Source: a virus
Lineage: Duplodnaviria; Heunggongvirae; Uroviricota; Caudoviricetes
Length of the DNA stretch: 29,281 nucleotides
Strand: one strand, 5' to 3'
Virus record (IMG/VR): IMGVR_UViG_2671180846_000020
A program made the translations under genes and the position numbers. Below are positions 19,100 through 29,150 of the stretch, piece after piece (position 1 is the stretch's first letter; each line of letters starts with the position of its first letter). A model generated the notes under the pieces. It saw only the letters and a list, made by a program, of their open reading frames with translations. It was not told the DNA's origin and did not search any database.

Positions 19100-20607
19100 T
19101 GGCAATTCTTGATGATGTGATTGGCGTTTTTTCACCAGGATGGAAAGCGGCAAGGCTGCGTTCCCGTGCGGTGATCCAGGCTTATGAGGCCGTAAAAACG
19201 ACGCGGACACACAAAGCCCGACGGGAGAACCGAACTGCCGACCAGTTAAGCCAGTACGGGGCCGTGTCGTTACGTGAGCAGGCCCGTTACCTTGATAACA
19301 ACCACGATCTGGTTATTGGTGTATTTGACAAGCTGGAAGAACGGGTGGTGGGGAAAAACGGGATTATTGTCGAGCCACATCCGGTATTACGCAATGGGGC
19401 CATTGCCCGTGACCTGGCTGCGGAGATTCGCACCCGATGGAGTGAATGGTCTGTCAGCCCGGAAGTCACCGGGCAGTTTACCCGTCCGATGCTGGAACGT
19501 CTGATGCTTCGTACCTGGCTGCGCGATGGTGAGGTGTTTGCCCAGATGGTTTCCGGGCGCATAAACAGCCTGGCGCCTTCTGCCGGTGTTCATTTCTGGC
19601 TGGAGGCGCTCGAGCCGGACTTTATTCCCATGACTAGTGATGAGAGCAACAGGCTGAATCAGGGCGTGTTTGTTGATGACTGGGGGCGTCCCGAAAAATA
19701 TCTGGTGTATAAAAGCCGTCCCGTATCCGGACGGCAGATGGAAACCAAAGAAGTGGATGCAGAGCGAATGCTGCATCTTAAATTTGTTCGCCGTCTGCAC
19801 CAGATGCGCGGGACGTCTTTGTTGTCCGGTGTGCTGATCCGCCTCAGTGCCCTGAAAGAATATGAAGATTCTGAGCTGACTGCAGCAAGGATCGCCGCTG
19901 CTCTGGGGATGTACATCCGGAAAGGCGACGGGCAGAGCTATGAACCGGATGGTAATGGCAGAAAGGAGAATGAACGTGAGCTTACCATTCAGCCGGGCAT
20001 TATTTACGACGATCTGAAACCCGGCGAAGAAATCGGAATGGTGAAGTCGGATCGCCCCAATCCTAACCTTGAAACTTTTCGTAATGGTCAGTTGCGTGCC
20101 GTGGCGGCGGGCAGTCGTCTGAGTTTTTCCAGTACAGCGCGCAACTATAACGGCACTTACAGCGCCCAGCGTCAGGAGCTGGTTGAATCCACTGATGGCT
20201 ACCTGATCCTGCAGGACTGGTTTATTGGTGCCGTCACCCGCCCGATGTATCGTGCATGGCTGAAACAGGCTGTGGCATCCGGTGTTATCAGGCTACCCCG
20301 CGATCTTGACCGTTCTTCACTGTATACCGCGGTGTATTCCGGACCAGTGATGCCGTGGATTGACCCTGTTAAGGAGGCTGAGGCCTGGAAAATCCAGATT
20401 CGTGGTGGAGCGGCGACAGAATCAGACTGGGTACGTGCTGGTGGTCGTAATCCGGATGATGTCAAACGTCGGCGCAAGGCCGAAATTGATGAAAACCGCA
20501 AGCTGGATCTGGTATTTGATACCGATCCGGCCAGTGATAAAGGAGGCAGTAGTGCCGCAACGAAACGACAGGAGCCGCAGCACACCGACGACCAGTCCGA
20601 AGAATAA
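19099..20607 (+). CDS. portal protein (lambda gpB-like)
   Basis: About 500-aa protein after W; its ATG overlaps the W stop; lambda gene order. Confidence 0.85.
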   Translation: MAILDDVIGVFSPGWKAARLRSRAVIQAYEAVKTTRTHKARRENRTADQLSQYGAVSLREQARYLDNNHDLVIGVFDKLEERVVGKNGIIVEPHPVLRNGAIARDLAAEIRTRWSEWSVSPEVTGQFTRPMLERLMLRTWLRDGEVFAQMVSGRINSLAPSAGVHFWLEALEPDFIPMTSDESNRLNQGVFVDDWGRPEKYLVYKSRPVSGRQMETKEVDAERMLHLKFVRRLHQMRGTSLLSGVLIRLSALKEYEDSELTAARIAAALGMYIRKGDGQSYEPDGNGRKENERELTIQPGIIYDDLKPGEEIGMVKSDRPNPNLETFRNGQLRAVAAGSRLSFSSTARNYNGTYSAQRQELVESTDGYLILQDWFIGAVTRPMYRAWLKQAVASGVIRLPRDLDRSSLYTAVYSGPVMPWIDPVKEAEAWKIQIRGGAATESDWVRAGGRNPDDVKRRRKAEIDENRKLDLVFDTDPASDKGGSSAATKRQEPQHTDDQSEE

Positions 20608-20620
20608 TTCCTGGTTCAGG

Positions 20621-22579
20621 ATGCAGGCTGGTCACCAGAGTGACGCGGATATTTATATTTATGACGAGATTGGTTTCTGGGGTGTTACAGCGAAGCAGTT
20701 TATCAGTGATCTGAATGCACTGGGCGATATCACCCACATTAATCTCCATATTAATTCACCGGGTGGCGATGTCTTTGAAGGCATCGCCATTTTTAATGCG
20801 CTGAAAACACATGGTGCGTCCATTACCGTTTATGTCGACGGTGTGGCGGCGTCAATGGCGTCGGTCATTGCGATGGTAGGAAACCCGGTCATTATGCCGG
20901 AAAACTCCTTCATGATGATTCATAAACCATTTGGCTTTACGGGCGGTGATGCGGAGGACATGCGCACCTATGCCGACCTGCTCGATAAAGTTGAGGCGGT
21001 TCTGTTACCCGCTTATGCACAGAAAACCGGGAAAACCACCGATGAAATTGCTGCCATGCTGGCGGATGAGACCTGGATGTCCGGTGCCGAATGTCTGGCA
21101 CAGGGATTTGCTGATCAGGTGACACCAGCCGTTAAGGCAATGGCATGTATTCAGTCAAAACGTACAGAGGAATTTAAAAAGATGCCGGAATCCATTCGAA
21201 ATATGATTACTCCGCCACGCAACAGTGCTCCACGCGTACAGGATGATGGACCTGCAGCCTCCCGGACGCCAGTGCAGGCAGCAGCACCCGTGGTGGATGA
21301 AAACAGCATCCGTGCGCAGGTCCTGGCAGAGCAAAAAGCGCGTGTAAACGGTATTAATGATCTGTTTGCCATGTTTGGCGGGCGTTATCAGTCGTTGCAG
21401 GCTCAGTGTCTTGCCGATCCTGAATGTTCGCTGGAGCAGGCCCGCGAAAAGCTGTTGAACGAGATGGGGCGCGAGTCCACGCCATCCAATAAAAATACCC
21501 CGGCTCATATTTATGCCGGTAACGGTAATTTTGTGGGGGACGGGATCCGCCAGGCGCTGATGGCGCGCGCCGGGTTTGAAAAAACTGAACGTGATAATGT
21601 CTACAACGGGATGACCCTGCGTGAATATGCCCGTATGTCACTGACTGAACGTGGTATTGGTGTTTCCAGTTATAACCCGATGCAGATGGTCGGTGCGGCG
21701 TTCACACACAGTACGTCTGACTTCGGTAATATTCTGCTGGATGTTGCGAACAAAGCCATTCTGCAGGGCTGGGAAGATGCCCCTGAAACCTATGAACAGT
21801 GGACGCGGAAAGGTCAGTTGTCTGATTTTAAAATTGCCCATCGTGTGGGTATGGGGGGCTTCAGTGCTCTGCGTCAGGTGCGTGAAGGGGCAGAATATAA
21901 ATACGTCACCACCGGAGATAAACAGGCCACTATTGCACTGGCGACCTATGGCGAGCTGTTCAGTATCACCCGTCAGGCCATTATCAATGATGATCTGAAT
22001 ATGCTGACCGATGTCCCGATGAAGCTGGGCCGTGCGGCGAAATCCACTATTGCCGATCTGGTTTATGCCATTCTGACGTCTAACCCGAAAATCTCCACAG
22101 ATAATGTAAGTCTGTTCGATAAAGCGAAACATGCAAACGTACTGGAGAGCGCGGCAATGGACGTGGCATCGCTGGATAAAGCCCGCCAGTTGATGCGCGT
22201 TCAGAAAGAGGGTGAGCGTCATCTGAATATTCGTCCTGCGTTCGTACTGGTACCGACGGCGATGGAGTCTGTTGCTAACCAGGTCATTCGCTCCTCAAGT
22301 GTCAAGGGGGCTGACATTAACGCCGGTATTATTAACCCGGTGAAAGATTTTGCGACCGTTATTGCAGAGCCTCGTCTTGATGATAACAGCCAGACCACCT
22401 TCTACCTGGCTGCGTCCAAAGGCTCCGATACGATTGAAGTGGCTTATCTCAACGGTGTGGATACGCCATATATTGATCAGATGGAGGGCTTCAGTGTGGA
22501 TGGCGTGACAACGAAAGTGCGTATTGACGCTGGTGTTGCGCCAGTTGATCACCGCGGCCTGGTGAAATGTACGGCGTAA
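20621..22579 (+). CDS. prohead protease (ClpP/S49-like) fused to an HK97-fold major capsid protein
   Basis: The N-terminal third has the ClpP-like motif INSPGGDVFEGIAIFNALK...ASMASVIA; the C-terminal portion resembles HK97-type major capsid proteins. It is one continuous frame of 652 aa from the ATG at 20621. Confidence 0.75.
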   Translation: MQAGHQSDADIYIYDEIGFWGVTAKQFISDLNALGDITHINLHINSPGGDVFEGIAIFNALKTHGASITVYVDGVAASMASVIAMVGNPVIMPENSFMMIHKPFGFTGGDAEDMRTYADLLDKVEAVLLPAYAQKTGKTTDEIAAMLADETWMSGAECLAQGFADQVTPAVKAMACIQSKRTEEFKKMPESIRNMITPPRNSAPRVQDDGPAASRTPVQAAAPVVDENSIRAQVLAEQKARVNGINDLFAMFGGRYQSLQAQCLADPECSLEQAREKLLNEMGRESTPSNKNTPAHIYAGNGNFVGDGIRQALMARAGFEKTERDNVYNGMTLREYARMSLTERGIGVSSYNPMQMVGAAFTHSTSDFGNILLDVANKAILQGWEDAPETYEQWTRKGQLSDFKIAHRVGMGGFSALRQVREGAEYKYVTTGDKQATIALATYGELFSITRQAIINDDLNMLTDVPMKLGRAAKSTIADLVYAILTSNPKISTDNVSLFDKAKHANVLESAAMDVASLDKARQLMRVQKEGERHLNIRPAFVLVPTAMESVANQVIRSSSVKGADINAGIINPVKDFATVIAEPRLDDNSQTTFYLAASKGSDTIEVAYLNGVDTPYIDQMEGFSVDGVTTKVRIDAGVAPVDHRGLVKCTA

Positions 22580-24255: not shown

Positions 24256-24999
24256 ATGACCACACCAAATCCACTGGCAAAGACGAAAGGTGCGGGGACG
24301 ACGTTCTGGATGTATACCGGCAACGGCGATGCGTTTGCGAACCCTTTGTCGGACACTGACTGGCTGCGTCTTGCGATGGTGAAGGATCTGCAACCTGGCG
24401 AAATGACCGCTGATGCAGAAGATGACACTTATCTCGATGATGAAGATGCAGACTGGAAAACGACAACCCAGGGGCAGAAATCCGTTGGTGATACTTCGGC
24501 GACGCTGGCCTGGCGTCCGGGTGACAGCGGGCAGAAAAAACTGGTTCAGTTGTTCGACTCCGGTGAAGTCTGCGCGTTTCGTATCAAATATCCCAACGGC
24601 ACTGTTGATGTTTTCCGTGGCTGGCTGAGCTCACTGGGTAAAACCATTGCCTCAAAAGACGTGATGACCCGCACTGTGAAAATCAGCGGTGTGGGGCGTC
24701 CGTATCTGGCAGAGGAAGGCACTGAAACCGTGAGCGTTACCGGGCTGACAGTATCACCGGCGTCTGCCAGTGTAAAAGTGGGAGCAACCACCACGCTGAC
24801 CTTTACAGTAAAACCTGACGGAGCCAGTGACAAAGCGATCAGTGTGCATTCGTCAGATCCACAGACTGCCACGGTTACCCTGAACGGACTTGTGGCCACG
24901 GTAAAAGGCGTGAAGCAGGGCAGTGTCAGCATTGTGGGCATGACCGCTGACGGGAATTTTGTGGCTGTGACTGCGGTGACTGTCAGCGCAGCAGGTTAA
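24256..24999 (+). CDS. major tail protein V-like with C-terminal Ig-like (Big_2) domain
   Basis: AAGGAGG SD; about 247 aa; the C-terminal ~90 aa are Thr/Val/Ser-rich beta-strand sequence (VTGLTVSPASASVKVGATTTLTFTVKPDG...) typical of Big_2 domains on lambda-like tail tubes. Confidence 0.8.
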   Translation: MTTPNPLAKTKGAGTTFWMYTGNGDAFANPLSDTDWLRLAMVKDLQPGEMTADAEDDTYLDDEDADWKTTTQGQKSVGDTSATLAWRPGDSGQKKLVQLFDSGEVCAFRIKYPNGTVDVFRGWLSSLGKTIASKDVMTRTVKISGVGRPYLAEEGTETVSVTGLTVSPASASVKVGATTTLTFTVKPDGASDKAISVHSSDPQTATVTLNGLVATVKGVKQGSVSIVGMTADGNFVAVTAVTVSAAG

Positions 25000-25017: not shown

Positions 25018-25046
25018 TTGCCCCGGTTATTCGGGGCTTTTTTGCA
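25018..25046 (+). terminator. hairpin/terminator after the major tail gene
   Basis: CCCCG-GTTATT-CGGGG followed by CTTTTTTGC. Confidence 0.5.
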
Positions 25047-25056
25047 GGTGGAGAAC

Positions 25057-25446
25057 ATGATGTTTCTGAAACAGGACACGTTTAATTATGAAAAACAGTC
25101 CGTGGTGCTCAGTGAGCTGTCCGGGCTGCAGAGAATTGAATATCTGACGTTTGTTCAGCAGCGAACGGCAAAGTTTGATGCCGGGGAGGGAGAACTGCCG
25201 GAGGCTGAACGACAGATTGCTTTTCTGCGGATGGGGATGGATATCAATGCCTGGCTGGTTTCCCGCTCACTGTGGAATGCGGATCAGTCTAAGGATGTAG
25301 AGACGCTTTGCGCATCCGTTATTACAACATGGTCGTATGATGCCCTGGGTGCGGGGGCGGAGATGGTTCTGTCGCTGAGCGGTATGGGGGCCATTGATAA
25401 TGCCGTGGATGATGAGCATGAGGCGCTGACGCCGGAAAAGTCCTGA
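25057..25446 (+). CDS. tail assembly chaperone G-like
   Basis: About 129-aa acidic protein between the major tail and tape-measure genes; followed by a -1-frame ORF, as in lambda G/T. Confidence 0.7.
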   Translation: MMFLKQDTFNYEKQSVVLSELSGLQRIEYLTFVQQRTAKFDAGEGELPEAERQIAFLRMGMDINAWLVSRSLWNADQSKDVETLCASVITTWSYDALGAGAEMVLSLSGMGAIDNAVDDEHEALTPEKS

Positions 25447-25784
25447 CGCGGGAAATGCAGTTTGTCATGCGGCTTGCCCGGGAGTTCCGGCGGGCAGACT
25501 GGCGGCGGATGCTGTCGGAAATGTCGGCCACTGAGCTTGGTGAGTGGGGCGATTATTTCCGGATGCAGAGCTTCAGTGATGTGTGGATGGATGCGCAGTT
25601 TGCCTCGCTGAAGGCATTGATCGTGAGAATGGTGTCCGGCAGCAGTGATGCTGCGGTGGCTGATTTCAGCCTTTTACCGGAAGAGAACGGGATACCGGAG
25701 CGAACGGACGAAGAACTGATGCATCTTGGGGAAGGTATTTCCGGAGGTGTGCGTTATGGACCAGATAGCCAACCTGGTCATTGA
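25431..25784 (+). CDS. T-like portion of the G-T tail assembly protein, reached by a putative -1 frameshift
   Basis: The ORF 25455-25784 is in the -1 frame relative to G and is open from just before the G stop. An A-rich stretch CCGGAAAAG lies at 25432-25440. Standalone expression is unlikely. Confidence 0.5.
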   Translation, partial: AGKVLTREMQFVMRLAREFRRADWRRMLSEMSATELGEWGDYFRMQSFSDVWMDAQFASLKALIVRMVSGSSDAAVADFSLLPEENGIPERTDEELMHLGEGISGGVRYGPDSQPGH

Positions 25785-28700
25785 TTTGGGGATTGATGCG
25801 GCAGAGTTTAAAAATGAAATTCCCCGTATCAAAAACCTTCTGAATGGTGCAGCCAGCGATGCAGAACGGTCTTCTGCCCGTATGCAGCGTTTTATGGAGC
25901 GTCAGACTCAGGCCGCCCGGCAGACAACGCAGGCAGCTTCTTCGGCTGCAACAGCCGCATCCGTCCATGCGCAGACGGTGGAGAAGAACGCACAGGCTCA
26001 TGAACGCATGGCCCGCGAGGTGGAGAAAACCCGCCAGCGCATGGAGGCACTGAGCCAGAAAATGCGCGAGGAACAGGCGCAGGCCATGGCTCTGGCGGAG
26101 GCTCAGGATAAAGCGGCTGCTGCGTTTTATCGTCAGATTGACAGTGTGAAACAGGCCAGTGCGGGGCTGCAGGAATTACAGCGTATTCAGCAGCAGATCC
26201 GACAGGCCAGAAACAGTGGCGGGATTGGTCAGCAGGATTATCTGGCGCTGATTTCTGAGGTTACTGCGAAAACCCGTGTTCTTACACAGGCTGAGGAAGA
26301 GGCTACCCGACAGAAAGTGGCGTTTATCCGTCAGCTTAAAGAGCAGGCAACCCGCCTGAATCTTTCATCTTCTGAGTTGCTTCGTGCTAAGGCAGCCCAG
26401 CTGGGGGTAAGCAGTGCTGCAGAAGTGTATATCCGCAAAATGGAGCAGGCAGGAAAAGCCACGCATTCGCTGGGTCTGAAAAGTGCAGCAGCCCGCCAGG
26501 AGATAGGCGTTCTGATAGGTGAACTGGCCCGCGGCAATTTAGGGGCGCTGAGGGGATCCGGGATAACGCTGGCTAACCGTGCCGGATGGATAGACACACT
26601 GATGTCACCGAAAGGCATGATGCTTGGCGGGGTTATTGGCGGTATTGCCGCGGCCGTCTATGGTCTGGGTAAAGCCTGGTATGACGGTCAGAAGGAGGGG
26701 GAAGAATTTAACCGCCAGTTGTCGCTGACGGGGCATTATGCCGGAGTCACTGCCGGGCAGCTGTGGACGCTCAGTCGTGCTATTTCCGGGAATGGTATCA
26801 CGCAACATGCTGCAGCCGGTGCGCTGGCTCAGGTGGTGGGGAGTGGTGCATTTCGTGGAAACGATATCGGTATGGTGGCGAGAGTTGCCGCACAGATGGA
26901 GCGATCGGTTGGCCAGTCGGTCAGCGATACCATAAATCAGTTTAAGCGGCTGAAGGATGATCCTGTAAATGCCGCGAAGGCTCTGGACAATGAGCTGCAT
27001 TTTCTTACTGCCACTCAGCTTGAGCAGATACGCGTCCTTGGGGAGCAGGGGCGGTCCAGTGATGCTGCACGGATAGCCATGTCTGCACTGGCAGAGGAAA
27101 CCGGTCGGCGTACTGCGGATATTGATAATAACCTCAATGCGCTTGGCAGTACGCTGAAGTATCTGTCTGATTTGTGGAGTCGTTTCTGGGATGCGGCCAT
27201 GAATATTGGTCGTGAAGACTCGCTGGATGAACAGATTGCCGCTTTACAGGAGAAAGTGTCGCGGGCGAAAAGACTCCCCTGGACGGCATCATCTTCTCAG
27301 GTTGAATACGATCAGCAGCGTCTTAACGATCTTCAGGAGAAAAAACGCCAGAAGGATTTGCAGGATGCAAAAGAGCAGGCAGAGCGGAATTATCAGGAGC
27401 AACAGAAACGCCGTAATGCTGAAAATGCTGCACTGAACCGGATGAATGAAACGGAAGCAGCACGACATCAGCGTGAAATTGCGCGTATTAATGCCATGCA
27501 GTACGCCGATCAGGCTGTCAGGGATGCGGCGATACAACGTGAAAATGAACGTTACGAGAAAGCCCTGGCATCCGGTAAGAAAAAAACACGCGAAACCCGT
27601 AATGATGAGGCCACCCGGTTATTGCTGCAGTACAGTCAGCAACAGGCACAGGTGGAAGGACAGATTGCTGCTGCCAGACAGTCAGCAGGCATTGCCACGG
27701 AAAGGATGACAGAAGCGCATAAACAGCTTCTGGCTCTGCAGCAGCGCATCAGCGACCTGGACGGGAAAAAACTGACGGCAGATGAAAAGAGTGTGCTGGC
27801 CCGTAAAGATGAACTGATTCAGGCACTGACGCTGCTGGATGTAAAACAGCAGGAGCTTCAGAAACAGACGGCACTCAACGAGCTGAAGAAAAAAACAATT
27901 CAGCTGACCAGTCAACTGGCTGAAGAAGAGCGCGCTCAGCGTCAGCAACATGACCTGGATATCGCCACGGTGGGTATGGGTGATCAGCAGCGACAGCGAT
28001 ATCAGGTACAACTGAGTCTTCGCCAGAAATACCAGCAACAGCTGGAGCAGTTGAGGCGGGATAGTGAGCAGAAAGGGACATATAACACGGATGACTACAG
28101 AAAGGCCGAGCAGGCGCTGACGGAGAGCCTGAACCGACAACTGAATGAGAATCGCCGTTACTGGCAACAGCTTGAAGTTGTGCAGGGTAACTGGAAAAAC
28201 GGAGTCCTGCGTGCATTTCAGGATTTTACCGTGGATGCAGATAATACGGCAGAAACAGCAGAACAGGTGTTCTCGTCAGCCTTCAGCAACATGGGAAATG
28301 GCCTGGCAACTTTTGTCACTACCGGCAAACTCAATTTCAAATCCTTCACCTCTTCTGTGCTGTCAGATATGGCGAAAATCCTGGCGCAGGCAACCATGAT
28401 GAAATCGATAAAAGGGATTGGCAGTGTACTGGGATTTGATCTCAGCAGCCTTTCCCTGAATGCCAATGGGGGGATTTATCAGTCTGCTGATTTGAGTCGT
28501 TACAGTGGCACGGTGGTTAACCGTCCGACGTTTTTTGCTTTTGCAAAAGGCGCGGGTGTGATGGGGGAAGCGGGACCTGAAGCCATTCTGCCATTGCGTC
28601 GTGGTGCTGACGGTAAGCTGGGGGTTGTGGCGGATATTGGGGGGTCAGGTATGGCGATGTTTTCCCCGCAGTACAACATCGAGATCAATAACGATGGCAC

Positions 28701-28821
28701 GAACGGGCAGATAGGTCCGGCTGCCCTGAAGGCGGTTTATGACCTCGGGAAAAAAGCGGCAGCGGACTTTATGCAACAGCAGGCCCGTGATGGTGGTCGG
28801 TTAAGTGGAGCATATCGGTAA
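25756..28821 (+). CDS. tail tape measure protein (lambda gpH-like)
   Basis: About 1021-aa protein with a long Ala/Gln/Glu-rich coiled-coil-like central region and a Gly-rich C-terminal part; it follows G/T and precedes M. Confidence 0.85.
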   Translation: MDQIANLVIDLGIDAAEFKNEIPRIKNLLNGAASDAERSSARMQRFMERQTQAARQTTQAASSAATAASVHAQTVEKNAQAHERMAREVEKTRQRMEALSQKMREEQAQAMALAEAQDKAAAAFYRQIDSVKQASAGLQELQRIQQQIRQARNSGGIGQQDYLALISEVTAKTRVLTQAEEEATRQKVAFIRQLKEQATRLNLSSSELLRAKAAQLGVSSAAEVYIRKMEQAGKATHSLGLKSAAARQEIGVLIGELARGNLGALRGSGITLANRAGWIDTLMSPKGMMLGGVIGGIAAAVYGLGKAWYDGQKEGEEFNRQLSLTGHYAGVTAGQLWTLSRAISGNGITQHAAAGALAQVVGSGAFRGNDIGMVARVAAQMERSVGQSVSDTINQFKRLKDDPVNAAKALDNELHFLTATQLEQIRVLGEQGRSSDAARIAMSALAEETGRRTADIDNNLNALGSTLKYLSDLWSRFWDAAMNIGREDSLDEQIAALQEKVSRAKRLPWTASSSQVEYDQQRLNDLQEKKRQKDLQDAKEQAERNYQEQQKRRNAENAALNRMNETEAARHQREIARINAMQYADQAVRDAAIQRENERYEKALASGKKKTRETRNDEATRLLLQYSQQQAQVEGQIAAARQSAGIATERMTEAHKQLLALQQRISDLDGKKLTADEKSVLARKDELIQALTLLDVKQQELQKQTALNELKKKTIQLTSQLAEEERAQRQQHDLDIATVGMGDQQRQRYQVQLSLRQKYQQQLEQLRRDSEQKGTYNTDDYRKAEQALTESLNRQLNENRRYWQQLEVVQGNWKNGVLRAFQDFTVDADNTAETAEQVFSSAFSNMGNGLATFVTTGKLNFKSFTSSVLSDMAKILAQATMMKSIKGIGSVLGFDLSSLSLNANGGIYQSADLSRYSGTVVNRPTFFAFAKGAGVMGEAGPEAILPLRRGADGKLGVVADIGGSGMAMFSPQYNIEINNDGTNGQIGPAALKAVYDLGKKAAADFMQQQARDGGRLSGAYR

Positions 28822-29150
28822 TGGAGACGTTTCACTGGAAAGTGCGCCCGGATATGAATGTGGTATCAGAGCCGAAAGTGGTGACAGTGAAGCTGGGCGA
28901 TGGTTATGAACAGCGTCGTGCGGCGGGACTGAATAACCAGTTGTCGACTTACAGCGTGACGATACGTGTTCGTAAATGTGACCACCCATCTTTAAAAGCC
29001 TTTCTGGAACGGCACGGTGGCGTCCGTGCATTTCAGTGGACGCCACCTTATGACTGGAAACCGATCAGGGTGGTTTGTCGTAAATGGTCGGCAAGCGTGG
29101 GGGCGCTGTGGGTAACCATAACGGCAGATTTTGAACAGGTCGTGGCATAG
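28821..29150 (+). CDS. minor tail protein M-like
   Basis: 109 aa, the same length as lambda gpM; its ATG overlaps the tape-measure stop. Confidence 0.75.
   Translation: METFHWKVRPDMNVVSEPKVVTVKLGDGYEQRRAAGLNNQLSTYSVTIRVRKCDHPSLKAFLERHGGVRAFQWTPPYDWKPIRVVCRKWSASVGALWVTITADFEQVVA

What the first reader, a model, noticed from the sequence alone, without database searches (positions are those of the whole stretch)
25420..25460. G/T-type programmed -1 frameshift with a non-lambda slip sequence
The T-like ORF is in the -1 frame relative to G and is open from just before the G stop. Lambda uses GGGAAAG; here the only A-rich candidate is CCGGAAAAG (25432-25440), which in the G frame reads CCG GAA AAG. 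The slip would have to occur on GAA-AAG or nearby, a less canonical heptamer, so the efficiency or exact site may differ.
Basis: partly seen in the sequence, partly recalled or inferred. Interest (0 to 1): 0.4.

Follow-up and report, generated by a model that had tools for sequence, protein, structure and literature searches.

The report
Tail-chaperone G-T frameshift at GGAAAAG
This is the well-known lambda-type tail-chaperone G/GT programmed -1 frameshift; it uses GGAAAAG instead of lambda's GGGAAAG, a slip site already annotated in phages N15 and phi80 and in fact the commonest one in this gene family, so the finding is real but ordinary.

Summary
G (25060-25446, PF06894) is followed by a T-domain ORF (PF06223) in the -1 frame. 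That frame is open only from 25422, so the frames must join within 25 nt. The only shift-prone sequence there is G_GAA_AAG (25434-25440).

It sits at exactly the position of lambda's G_GGA_AAG, and the two fused proteins align in register from the slip lysine onward.

The slip site is not new. GenBank records for N15, phi80 and phage LLS already mark GGAAAAG as the -1 slippery sequence. In my survey, 51 of 66 distinct junctions from genomes and phages, and 54 of 55 from viral contigs, carry GGAAAAG. Lambda's heptamer is the minority.

Synonymous positions show selection on the nucleotides themselves:
- G at heptamer position 1 in 24 of 25 deep clusters (10.5 expected).
- Glu always GAA.
- Lys almost always AAG.

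The ATG at 25455, which databases annotate as the T start, has no usable Shine-Dalgarno sequence and is absent from most relatives.

Most likely mechanism: tRNA-Lys slips AAG to AAA while tRNA-Glu re-pairs GAA to GGA through a middle G·U pair. A GAGG exactly 10 nt upstream (the dnaX spacing) recurs in 7 of 25 clusters and may stimulate the shift. No downstream structure is conserved. Efficiency is unmeasured.

The parts
24256..24999 (+). Major tail tube gene V (Phage_TTP_12 plus a Big_2 Ig-like domain); upstream boundary of the G-T cassette
   Evidence: Pfam E=5e-67 and 2e-12; annotated as major tail protein in mEp460 and PhiR55_1
25020..25045 (+). Terminator-like hairpin plus T-run between V and G; context only, not part of the slip signal
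   Evidence: Terminator scan hit; fold z=-2.25; annotated as a rho-independent terminator in mEp460, Ayreon and N15
25060..25446 (+). Gene G, tail assembly chaperone (128 aa; an alternative ATG lies at 25057); zero-frame product ends ...EALTPEKS*
   Evidence: PF06894 E=3.8e-40. Homologues begin MFLK. SD GGAG at 25050-25053, -6.4 kcal/mol, last paired base 5 nt before ATG 25060
25419..25421 (+). TGA in the -1 (T) frame; 5' limit of the region where the frames can join
   Evidence: Direct reading and translation
25420..25423 (+). Internal Shine-Dalgarno-like GAGG, exactly 10 nt upstream of the heptamer; candidate 5' stimulator (inferred, not shown)
   Evidence: Anti-SD duplex -5.6 kcal/mol. GAGG at a 10-nt spacer in 17 of 66 distinct junctions, i.e. 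7 of 25 clusters, against a background of 0.004 per position. Seen again in the viral-contig lineages L177, L184 and L195. The dnaX-mimic mRNA has the same 10-nt spacing
25434..25440 (+). Slip heptamer G_GAA_AAG: A-site tRNA-Lys AAG to AAA (cognate); P-site tRNA-Glu GAA to GGA (G-C, G·U, A-U)
   Evidence: Only A_AAR motif in the 25-nt overlap. Homologous to lambda G_GGA_AAG. Annotated as the slip site in N15, phi80 and LLS. Nucleotide-level conservation
25444..25446 (+). G stop codon TGA, one codon after the slip lysine; 3' limit of the joining region
   Evidence: Across the family the stop lies +0, +3 or +15 nt after the slip codon
25440..25784 (+). T segment read in the -1 frame after base 25440 is read again (114 aa plus stop). 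The fused GT product is 241 aa: ...EALTPEK|VLTREMQFVMRLAREF...
   Evidence: PF06223 E=5e-15; fusion built; aligns in register with the lambda, N15, phi80 and Fels-1 GT proteins
25455..25457 (+). ATG that databases annotate as the start of a stand-alone 109-aa T protein; probably just an internal Met codon of GT
   Evidence: Annotated this way by PGAP and GenBank. SD-like match of -4.3 kcal/mol abuts the ATG. An ATG at this codon occurs in only 6 of 66 relatives
25756..28821 (+). Tape-measure gene H; it overlaps the 3' end of T by 29 nt and is the downstream boundary of the cassette
   Evidence: TMP_2, Tape_meas_lam_C and TMP_4 domains; SD -10.8 kcal/mol

Best explanation
This is the lambda-type G/GT tail-assembly-chaperone recoding site of an mEp460/cdtI-like lambdoid prophage. 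Most ribosomes read G to its TGA and make the 128-aa chaperone. A minority slip back one base on G_GAA_AAG (25434-25440) and continue in the T frame, giving a 241-aa G-T fusion. By analogy with lambda, that fusion links the tape-measure protein H to the tube protein V.

Proposed slip: tRNA-Lys (mnm5s2UUU) moves from AAG to AAA, which is cognate. tRNA-Glu (mnm5s2UUC) moves from GAA to GGA, keeping the first and third base pairs with a G·U pair in the middle.

Shown here: gene identities, frame geometry, positional homology with lambda, and selection on all the synonymous positions of the heptamer.

Inferred: the tRNA details, that the fusion is actually made, its ratio to G, and any help from the GAGG 10 nt upstream.
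For: - Gene context: G is PF06894 (E=4e-40) and T is PF06223 (E=5e-15), lying between V and H.
- Geometry: the frames can only join within 25422-25446, and G_GAA_AAG is the only shift-prone motif there.
- Homology: the site is one base different from lambda's G_GGA_AAG at the same alignment column. K128 is invariant, and the peptides after the slip align in register: lambda VFDGELSFALKLARE, window VLTREMQFVMRLAREF.
- Prior annotation: the N15, phi80 and LLS GenBank records mark GGAAAAG as the -1 slippery sequence, with joined CDSs for phi80 and LLS.
- Survey: GGAAAAG is present in 51 of 66 distinct junctions from genomes and phages, and in 54 of 55 from IMG/VR. All 66 have A_AAR at this codon.
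- Tight overlaps: in Proteus L106 and Providencia L159 the overlap is 13 nt, that is 6 nt plus GGAAAAG, with the stop directly after it.
- Synonymous-site selection across 25 clusters of 65% identity or less: position 1 is G in 24 of 25 (10.5 expected), spread over Ala, Pro, Leu, Val, Thr and Lys codons. Glu is GAA in 19 of 19 (background 56%). Lys is AAG in 22 of 25 (background 34%).
- No independent T start: 31 of 66 relatives have no ATG, GTG or TTG within 14 codons after the slip.
Against: - No protein data exist for this lineage. The exact fused sequence is absent from a collection of about 15 billion proteins, and every record annotates T as a separate ORF.
- G GAA AAG is a poor shifter in a purified system, giving mainly 0-frame product at all EF-G concentrations (PMC6924986).
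- A_AAG tetramers without a stimulator are barely above background in vivo: 0.147% against 0.112% (PMC4066793).
- No significant or conserved downstream structure was found.
- The efficiency could therefore be well below lambda's roughly 4%.
- This clade does have an ATG 8 nt after the G stop, so some free T made by reinitiation cannot be excluded.
Confidence: 0.88

Rival explanations
1. T is made as a free 109-aa protein from its own ATG at 25455, as every database annotates it. Initiation would be de novo or by termination-reinitiation after the G stop 8 nt upstream. No fusion would be needed.
For: - The ATG at 25455 is in the T frame, 8 nt after the TGA of G.
- PGAP and GenBank annotate it this way in mEp460, cdtI, PhiR55_1 and in E. 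coli genomes. The 109-aa sequence sits on at least 1000 contigs under the name 'phage tail assembly protein T'.
- All 80 close IMG/VR relatives keep the ATG.
Against: - The best anti-SD pairing is -4.3 kcal/mol and ends 0 nt before the ATG. The values for G, H and V are -6.4, -10.8 and -13.4 kcal/mol at 3-6 nt.
- An ATG at this codon exists in only 6 of 66 distinct relatives, and 31 of 66 have no start codon at all within 14 codons.
- This model does not explain why GGAAAAG is conserved at synonymous positions.
- It also does not explain why the -1 frame opens just before the heptamer in every lineage.
- In lambda, the -1-frame T domain is described as part of the frameshift product gpGT (review PMC5009743).
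Confidence: 0.06
2. The shift is a single-tRNA event. Only tRNA-Lys slips on the A_AAG tetramer, as in IS1222 or Bacillus cdd. The preceding GAA and the G before it would play no part in re-pairing.
For: - A_AAR is the only element common to all variants: G_GAA_AAG, A_GAA_AAG, G_GTA_AAG, G_GCA_AAA, G_GGA_AAG, and C_CCA_AAA in Vibrio phages.
- Morganella uses A_GAA_AAG, where the Glu tRNA cannot re-pair.
- In 13 of 66 junctions a stop codon directly follows the Lys codon, which fits P-site slippage with an empty A site.
- NNA_AAG hexanucleotide sites are an established class (PMC5009743).
Against: - Heptamer position 1 is G in 24 of 25 clusters, against 10.5 expected, across six different amino acids. 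Under a Lys-only model that base would be free.
- Glu is always GAA, though part of that follows from the need for an A before AAG.
- The G·U-mediated GAA to GGA re-pairing has already been proposed for the mycobacteriophage GGGGGAA sites (PMC10885494).
Confidence: 0.2
3. The frames are joined by something other than ribosomal -1 slippage at the heptamer: transcriptional slippage on the A run, a shift elsewhere in the overlap, or T being a decaying remnant that is not expressed.
For: No protein-level data are available for this lineage. The heptamer does contain a run of four A.
Against: - Four A residues are far shorter than known bacterial transcriptional-slippage tracts (established knowledge).
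- The remaining 18 nt of the overlap contain no repetitive or shift-prone sequence.
- T is conserved as a PF06223 domain with 11 invariant residues across lineages 32-62% identical to the alignment's first sequence.
- The cassette is present nearly intact in 1846 of 5426 complete E. coli genomes.
Confidence: 0.02

Closest known systems
Bacteriophage lambda G/GT programmed -1 frameshift (G_GGA_AAG; Levin et al. 1993, Xu et al. 2004/2013/2014, as summarised in PMC5009743 and PMC3296357)
   Same: - Same gene families (PF06894 and PF06223).
- Same position between V and H.
- Same -1 direction and same alignment column for the slip Lys.
- Same A-site codon AAG.
- T has no conserved start of its own.
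   Different: - The P-site codon is GAA (Glu), not GGA (Gly), so the heptamer is not of the X_XXY_YYZ form.
- The G stop is 3 nt after the slip codon instead of 15 nt.
- The T segment is 114 aa here against 144 aa in lambda.
- A GAGG lies 10 nt upstream, which lambda lacks.
Phage N15 genes 14/15, phage phi80 gpG-T and phage LLS genes 11/12 (GenBank AF064539, FN582354, PQ299149)
   Same: The heptamer GGAAAAG is identical, in the same frame (G_GAA_AAG) and at the same alignment column. The depositors explicitly annotated it as the -1 slippery sequence.
   Different: - The proteins are only 36-37% identical to the window's GT.
- Their G stop is 15 nt downstream.
- They have no SD-like sequence near a 10-nt spacing.
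- I could not retrieve any paper that measures frameshifting for them.
A_AAG tetranucleotide / NNA_AAG hexanucleotide -1 sites (IS1222 G_CGA_AAG, Bacillus subtilis cdd A_CGA_AAG; PMC5009743, PMC4066793)
   Same: The A-site Lys AAG to AAA slip is the core event. The P-site tRNA re-pairs imperfectly. The intrinsic efficiency is low and depends on the 5' codon and on stimulators.
   Different: - Sharma et al. obtained high A_AAG frameshifting only with the IS3 pseudoknot stimulator.
- Here no 3' structure is detectable.
- Here position 1 is under selection, which argues for real two-tRNA re-pairing.
E. coli dnaX -1 frameshift (A_AAA_AAG with an upstream SD-like sequence and a downstream stem-loop)
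   Same: The A-site codon is AAG, read by the single tRNA-Lys. An SD-like element lies 10 nt upstream of the heptamer: AGGGAG-N10 in the dnaX-mimic mRNA and GAGG-N10 here.
   Different: - The SD-like element is only 4 nt long (-5.6 kcal/mol).
- There is no downstream stem-loop.
- The P-site codon is not slippery.
- The expected efficiency is a few percent or less, not about 50%.
Mycobacteriophage tail-chaperone slip sites GGGGGAA, and the 'twofour' motif class of PRFect (PMC10885494)
   Same: Both are non-canonical tail-chaperone slip motifs. In GGGGGAA the authors propose the same tRNA-Glu GAA to GGA re-pairing through G:U.
   Different: - The hosts and gene families differ.
- In that case the Glu tRNA is the 3' (second) tRNA of the pair, not the 5' one.
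- Those motifs were derived from annotation, not experiment.

Membership tests
Lambda-type G/GT tail assembly chaperone frameshift cassette | Two overlapping ORFs located between the major tail tube gene and the tape-measure gene | tested here: met
   V 24256-24999, G 25060-25446, T frame 25422-25784, H 25756-28821
Lambda-type G/GT tail assembly chaperone frameshift cassette | Upstream ORF homologous to gpG and downstream ORF homologous to the T domain | tested here: met
   PF06894 E=3.8e-40; PF06223 E=5.1e-15. The fusion is 34% identical to lambda GT over its full length
Lambda-type G/GT tail assembly chaperone frameshift cassette | Downstream ORF in the -1 frame, without a conserved initiation site of its own | tested here: met
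   T is in the -1 frame. ATG 25455 lacks a usable SD and is present in only 6 of 66 relatives
Lambda-type G/GT tail assembly chaperone frameshift cassette | A conserved slippery sequence inside the overlap, near the 3' end of G | tested here: met
   G_GAA_AAG at 25434-25440, at the column of lambda's heptamer. Conserved at synonymous sites across 25 clusters
Lambda-type G/GT tail assembly chaperone frameshift cassette | A G-T fusion protein is made at a low fixed ratio to G (about 1:30 in lambda) and is required for tail assembly | not testable with these tools
   Needs western blot, mass spectrometry and genetics. The fused sequence is absent from protein databases
Canonical X_XXY_YYZ tandem-slippage heptamer | Positions 1-3 identical and positions 4-6 identical, so that both tRNAs keep their two non-wobble pairs after the shift | tested here: not met
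   G_GAA_AAG has positions 1-3 = GGA. The P-site tRNA-Glu would face GGA, a second-position G·U (stated explicitly in PMC6924986)
Z_ZZN tetramer / NNA_AAG hexamer -1 sites | In-frame A_AAG that allows cognate re-pairing of tRNA-Lys | tested here: met
   GA[A_AAG] at 25436-25440 in the G frame. A_AAR is present in 66 of 66 homologous junctions
Z_ZZN tetramer / NNA_AAG hexamer -1 sites | A strong 3' stimulator (pseudoknot or stem-loop), which Sharma et al. needed for high frameshifting on tetramers (A_AAG reached 5.6% with the IS3 pseudoknot) | tested here: not met
   Window folds give z=-0.96, +0.51 and -0.34. RNAalifold on 57 distinct downstream segments finds no pairs within +60 nt
dnaX-like SD-stimulated -1 frameshift | An SD-like sequence about 10-14 nt 5' of the shift site | tested here: met
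   GAGG at 25420-25423, 10-nt spacer, -5.6 kcal/mol. It recurs at exactly this spacing in 7 of 25 clusters. Function was not tested
dnaX-like SD-stimulated -1 frameshift | A downstream stem-loop acting together with the SD | tested here: not met
   No significant or conserved structure

The most novel reading that the evidence does not exclude
Most of the lambda G/T family has settled on a deliberately weak, near-cognate heptamer, G_GAA_AAG, in which both slipping tRNAs (Glu and Lys) carry mnm5s2U34. In several lineages, including this window, an internal GAGG at the dnaX spacing of 10 nt would tune the heptamer up. If so, the G:GT ratio would be set by rRNA-mRNA pairing and would depend doubly on host tRNA thiolation. 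The sequence ribosome kineticists use as a 'non-slippery control' would then be a widespread natural programmed site.
Probability: 0.25. Interest if true: 0.4.

Novelty: already known. Interest (0 to 1): 0.22.

Why it matters
In practice this is an annotation matter. In 1846 of 5426 complete E. coli genomes, and in phages such as mEp460 and cdtI, T is annotated as a free 109-aa protein. The 241-aa GT fusion, which is probably the real product, is missing from protein databases.

Scientifically the value is modest. The survey shows that lambda's textbook G_GGA_AAG is the minority form and that G_GAA_AAG is the family norm, under clear nucleotide-level selection. Searches restricted to X_XXY_YYZ patterns (for example Sharma et al. 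2014) cannot see this site. It also offers a natural test case for near-cognate P-site re-pairing and for SD-like stimulation of a weak shift site.

Tried and rejected
- **Downstream stimulatory structure:** three folds of the window (z=-0.96, +0.51, -0.34) and RNAalifold with a column-shuffle control on 57 distinct homologous segments. Nothing within +60 nt, so rejected.
- **Independent T initiation:** compared SD strength and spacing with the G, H, V and M starts and checked start-codon conservation. Rejected as the main route.
- **Apparent in-frame G-T fusions:** IMG/VR loci L005 and L006 have match lengths divisible by 3. Alignment shows single-base indels near the junction in otherwise near-identical sequence, most simply assembly errors. 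Not pursued.
- **Literature on GGAAAAG as a phage slip site:** the open-access library has no paper that discusses it. The only hit is the EF-G kinetics paper that uses it as a control. Xu et al. 2004 and the phi80 genome paper are not held, so I could not check whether the N15 or phi80 frameshifts were verified experimentally.
- **Solved structures:** no PDB relative of the GT fusion at E≤1.
- **Structure prediction:** not attempted.
- **SD-like element versus heptamer weakness:** no clear association. The phi80/N15-type G_GAA_AAG and Morganella A_GAA_AAG lack the element, while Edwardsiella G_GGA_AAG has GGAG.

Full report
**What is in the window**

The region around the finding is a lambda-type tail module.
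- V, the major tail tube gene, is at 24256-24999 (Phage_TTP_12 E=5e-67, plus Big_2).
- G is at 25060-25446 (PF06894 'lambda tail assembly chaperone G', E=3.8e-40).
- A T-domain ORF follows (PF06223, E=5.1e-15).
- H, the tape-measure gene, is at 25756-28821.
- M is at 28821-29150.

The DNA is 99-100% identical to phages PhiR55_1, mEp460 and cdtI. It occurs in 1846 of 5426 complete E. coli genomes. The whole window is collinear with a lambdoid phage genome.

**Checking the observation**

The G frame reads GAG GCG CTG ACG CCG GAA AAG TCC TGA, with the stop at 25444-25446. The T frame is the -1 frame. It has a TGA at 25419-25421 and is open from 25422 to 25784. The frames can therefore join only within 25 nt. 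The only shift-prone sequence there is G_GAA_AAG at 25434-25440.

The heptamer by itself is not diagnostic, since it occurs 13 times in the window against 5.2 expected. Its placement is what matters.

**Homology with lambda**

Lambda's G_GGA_AAG (L003 1210-1216) lies at the same alignment column. The fused proteins align without a gap across the junction:
- lambda: ...SAGK|VFDGELSFALKLARE
- window: ...TPEK|VLTREMQFVMRLAREF

The slip lysine is an invariant column in a 5-sequence and in a 22-sequence alignment. The two heptamers differ by one base, G to A at position 3.

**The slip site is already annotated elsewhere**

A tblastn search of the fused protein against phage records found three records in which depositors mark GGAAAAG as the slip site.
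- Phage LLS has a misc_feature reading 'minus-one programmed translational frameshift site GGAAAAG'.
- Phages phi80 and N15 have misc_features reading 'slippery sequence for -1 translational frameshift'.
- In all three the marked sequence is GGAAAAG in the G_GAA_AAG frame, and phi80 and LLS carry joined CDSs.

By contrast, every record of the window's own lineage annotates T as a separate ORF starting at the ATG. This holds for mEp460, cdtI, Ayreon, PhiR55_1 and for RefSeq E. coli genomes. The exact 241/242-aa fusion is absent from a collection of about 15 billion proteins. The 109-aa ORF is on at least 1000 contigs.

**Family survey**

A scan of one genome per species, with an alignment as query, gave 80 loci across Enterobacterales. 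Together with the phage loci these give 66 distinct junctions.

| Heptamer | Distinct junctions | Where |
|---|---|---|
| GGAAAAG | 51 | most lineages |
| GGGAAAG | 5 | lambda group, Edwardsiella, E. albertii |
| AGAAAAG | 3 | Morganella |
| GGTAAAG | 3 | Pantoea |
| GGCAAAA | 2 | Kluyvera, Ewingella |
| GGGAAAA | 1 | Providencia |

- A second scan, of IMG/VR with a broader alignment, gave 54 GGAAAAG and 1 GGGAAAA among 55 distinct junctions.
- Distant Vibrio phages use C_CCA_AAA.
- The common denominator is an in-frame A_AAR lysine slip, and G_GAA_AAG is the norm rather than the exception.
- The G stop lies 0, 3 or 15 nt after the slip codon (13, 16 and 37 junctions).
- The -1 frame opens as little as 3-6 nt before the heptamer. 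In Proteus L106 and Providencia L159 the whole overlap is 13 nt, ending in GGAAAAG followed directly by the stop. This pins the shift to the heptamer.

**Selection on the nucleotides**

I grouped the junctions into 25 clusters at 65% or lower protein identity and compared synonymous positions with amino-acid-specific codon usage in the same genes.

| Position | Observed | Expectation |
|---|---|---|
| Base before the P-site codon is G | 24 of 25 clusters | 10.5 expected; no simulation of 200,000 reached 24 |
| Glu codon is GAA | 19 of 19 | background 56% |
| Lys codon is AAG | 22 of 25 | background 34%, P about 4e-8 |

The conserved G at position 1 is spread over GCG, CCG, CTG, TTG, GTG, ACG, AAG and ATG. 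The clusters are not fully independent, but the signal is large. Because position 1 is conserved, the P-site tRNA appears to matter. A pure Lys-only slip would leave that base free.

**Mechanism**

The following rests on established knowledge of E. coli tRNAs and is an inference for this site.
- tRNA-Lys (mnm5s2UUU) reads both AAG and AAA, so the A-site re-pairing is cognate.
- tRNA-Glu (mnm5s2UUC), moving from GAA to GGA, keeps G-C and A-U pairs and has a G·U pair in the middle.
- The PRFect authors propose the same G:U re-pairing for the mycobacteriophage GGGGGAA site (PMC10885494).

Expected efficiency is low.
- G GAA AAG was the 'less slippery' control in a reconstituted system and gave mainly 0-frame product (PMC6924986).
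- A_AAG tetramers without a stimulator were barely above background in vivo, at 0.147% against 0.112%. They reached 5.6% with a pseudoknot (PMC4066793).
- Lambda's site shifts about 4% of the time (PMC3296357).

**Stimulators**

No downstream structure is supported.
- Three folds of the window are not better than shuffles.
- RNAalifold on 57 distinct homologous segments finds nothing within 60 nt.

Upstream there is a GAGG at 25420-25423, exactly 10 nt before the heptamer.
- Its anti-SD pairing is -5.6 kcal/mol, similar to the real SDs of G and M.
- GAGG at exactly this spacing occurs in 17 of 66 distinct junctions, or 7 of 25 clusters. These include the Pantoea G_GTA_AAG and one of the two G_GCA_AAA junctions (Ewingella L099).
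- The background frequency is 0.004 per position.
- It recurs in further viral-contig lineages.
- The spacing equals that of the dnaX-mimicking mRNA, AGGGAG-N10-AAAAAAG.

It arises from an in-frame Glu codon GAG followed by a codon that starts with G.
- In that context, my count from the listing gives GAG 17 times and GAA 2 times.
- Before Pro codons, the same listing gives GAG about 9 times out of 25.
- This is suggestive, not proof. The phi80, N15 and lambda types lack the element.

**Rival: independent T**

The ATG at 25455 is 8 nt after the G stop.
- Its best anti-SD match is -4.3 kcal/mol and abuts the start codon.
- An ATG at that codon occurs in only 6 of 66 relatives.
- 31 of 66 relatives have no ATG, GTG or TTG within 14 codons of the slip.

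Some reinitiation in this clade cannot be excluded, but it is not the conserved route.

**Verdict**

The finding is real and correctly interpreted, but it is a known kind of site with a known heptamer. This survey adds three things:
- The 'non-lambda' heptamer is the family majority and is under nucleotide-level selection.
- The lineage is systematically mis-annotated.
- A candidate SD-like stimulator sits at the dnaX spacing.

None of this is very surprising to a recoding specialist, and efficiency and function remain untested.

Noticed in passing
window 25020-25045: A GC-rich hairpin (GCCCCGG-TTAT-TCGGGGC) followed by TTTTTT lies in the 57-nt gap between V and G (fold z=-2.25). The same spot is annotated as a rho-independent terminator in mEp460, Ayreon and N15. 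It could act as an attenuator that lowers G/T/H expression relative to the tube protein V.
   Followed up: partly
L144-L149, L152, L153, L155 (genome contigs): Junction sequences identical to phage lambda's sit on short contigs in assemblies labelled Kitasatospora, Shewanella, Pseudomonas, Oceanobacillus, Neobacillus, Leeuwenhoekiella and Chromatium; several contig names carry coverage near 1x. This is almost certainly lambda DNA contamination (spike-in or control), not real prophages.
   Followed up: no
window, 13 sites (e.g. 4940, 6929, 8624, 11033, 16536, 22885, 26452 on the + strand): GGAAAAG is over-represented in the window: 13 matches against 5.2 +/- 2.4 expected, and none of 100 shuffles reached 13. 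By my reading of the coordinates, at least one (8624) lies about 11 nt before a gene start and may act as an SD. I did not check whether any other site is in a G_GAA_AAG frame with an open -1 frame.
   Followed up: no
L101-L103 (Morganella), L097/L099 (Kluyvera, Ewingella), L140/L142/L158 (Pantoea): Some relatives use even less canonical sites at the same codon: A_GAA_AAG and G_GCA_AAA, each followed directly by a stop codon, and G_GTA_AAG. At these sites the P-site tRNA cannot re-pair well. They look like pure Lys-tRNA 'shifty stop' sites.
   Followed up: partly
L206 (IMG/VR), junction region: In an otherwise phi80-like context the heptamer is GGGAAAA followed by CCC, instead of GGAAAAG followed by CCC. 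It is a canonical G_GGA_AAA two base changes away (positions 3 and 7), which suggests lineages move between weak and canonical heptamers.
   Followed up: no
L005 and L006 (IMG/VR), near locus positions 1790-1940: Two close relatives show single-base insertions or deletions around the G-T junction, so the tblastn match length becomes a multiple of three. These are probably assembly errors in G-runs, but they could be naturally fused or broken G-T genes.
   Followed up: partly
window 20360-22579: A long ORF upstream of the tail genes (739 aa as listed) appears from its translation to combine a ClpP-like prohead protease/scaffold N-terminal part with a major-capsid-like C-terminal part; I did not run a domain search on it. 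PhiR55_1 annotates it as 'head-tail preconnector protein Nu3' and lists no separate major capsid gene between it and the tail genes.
   Followed up: no
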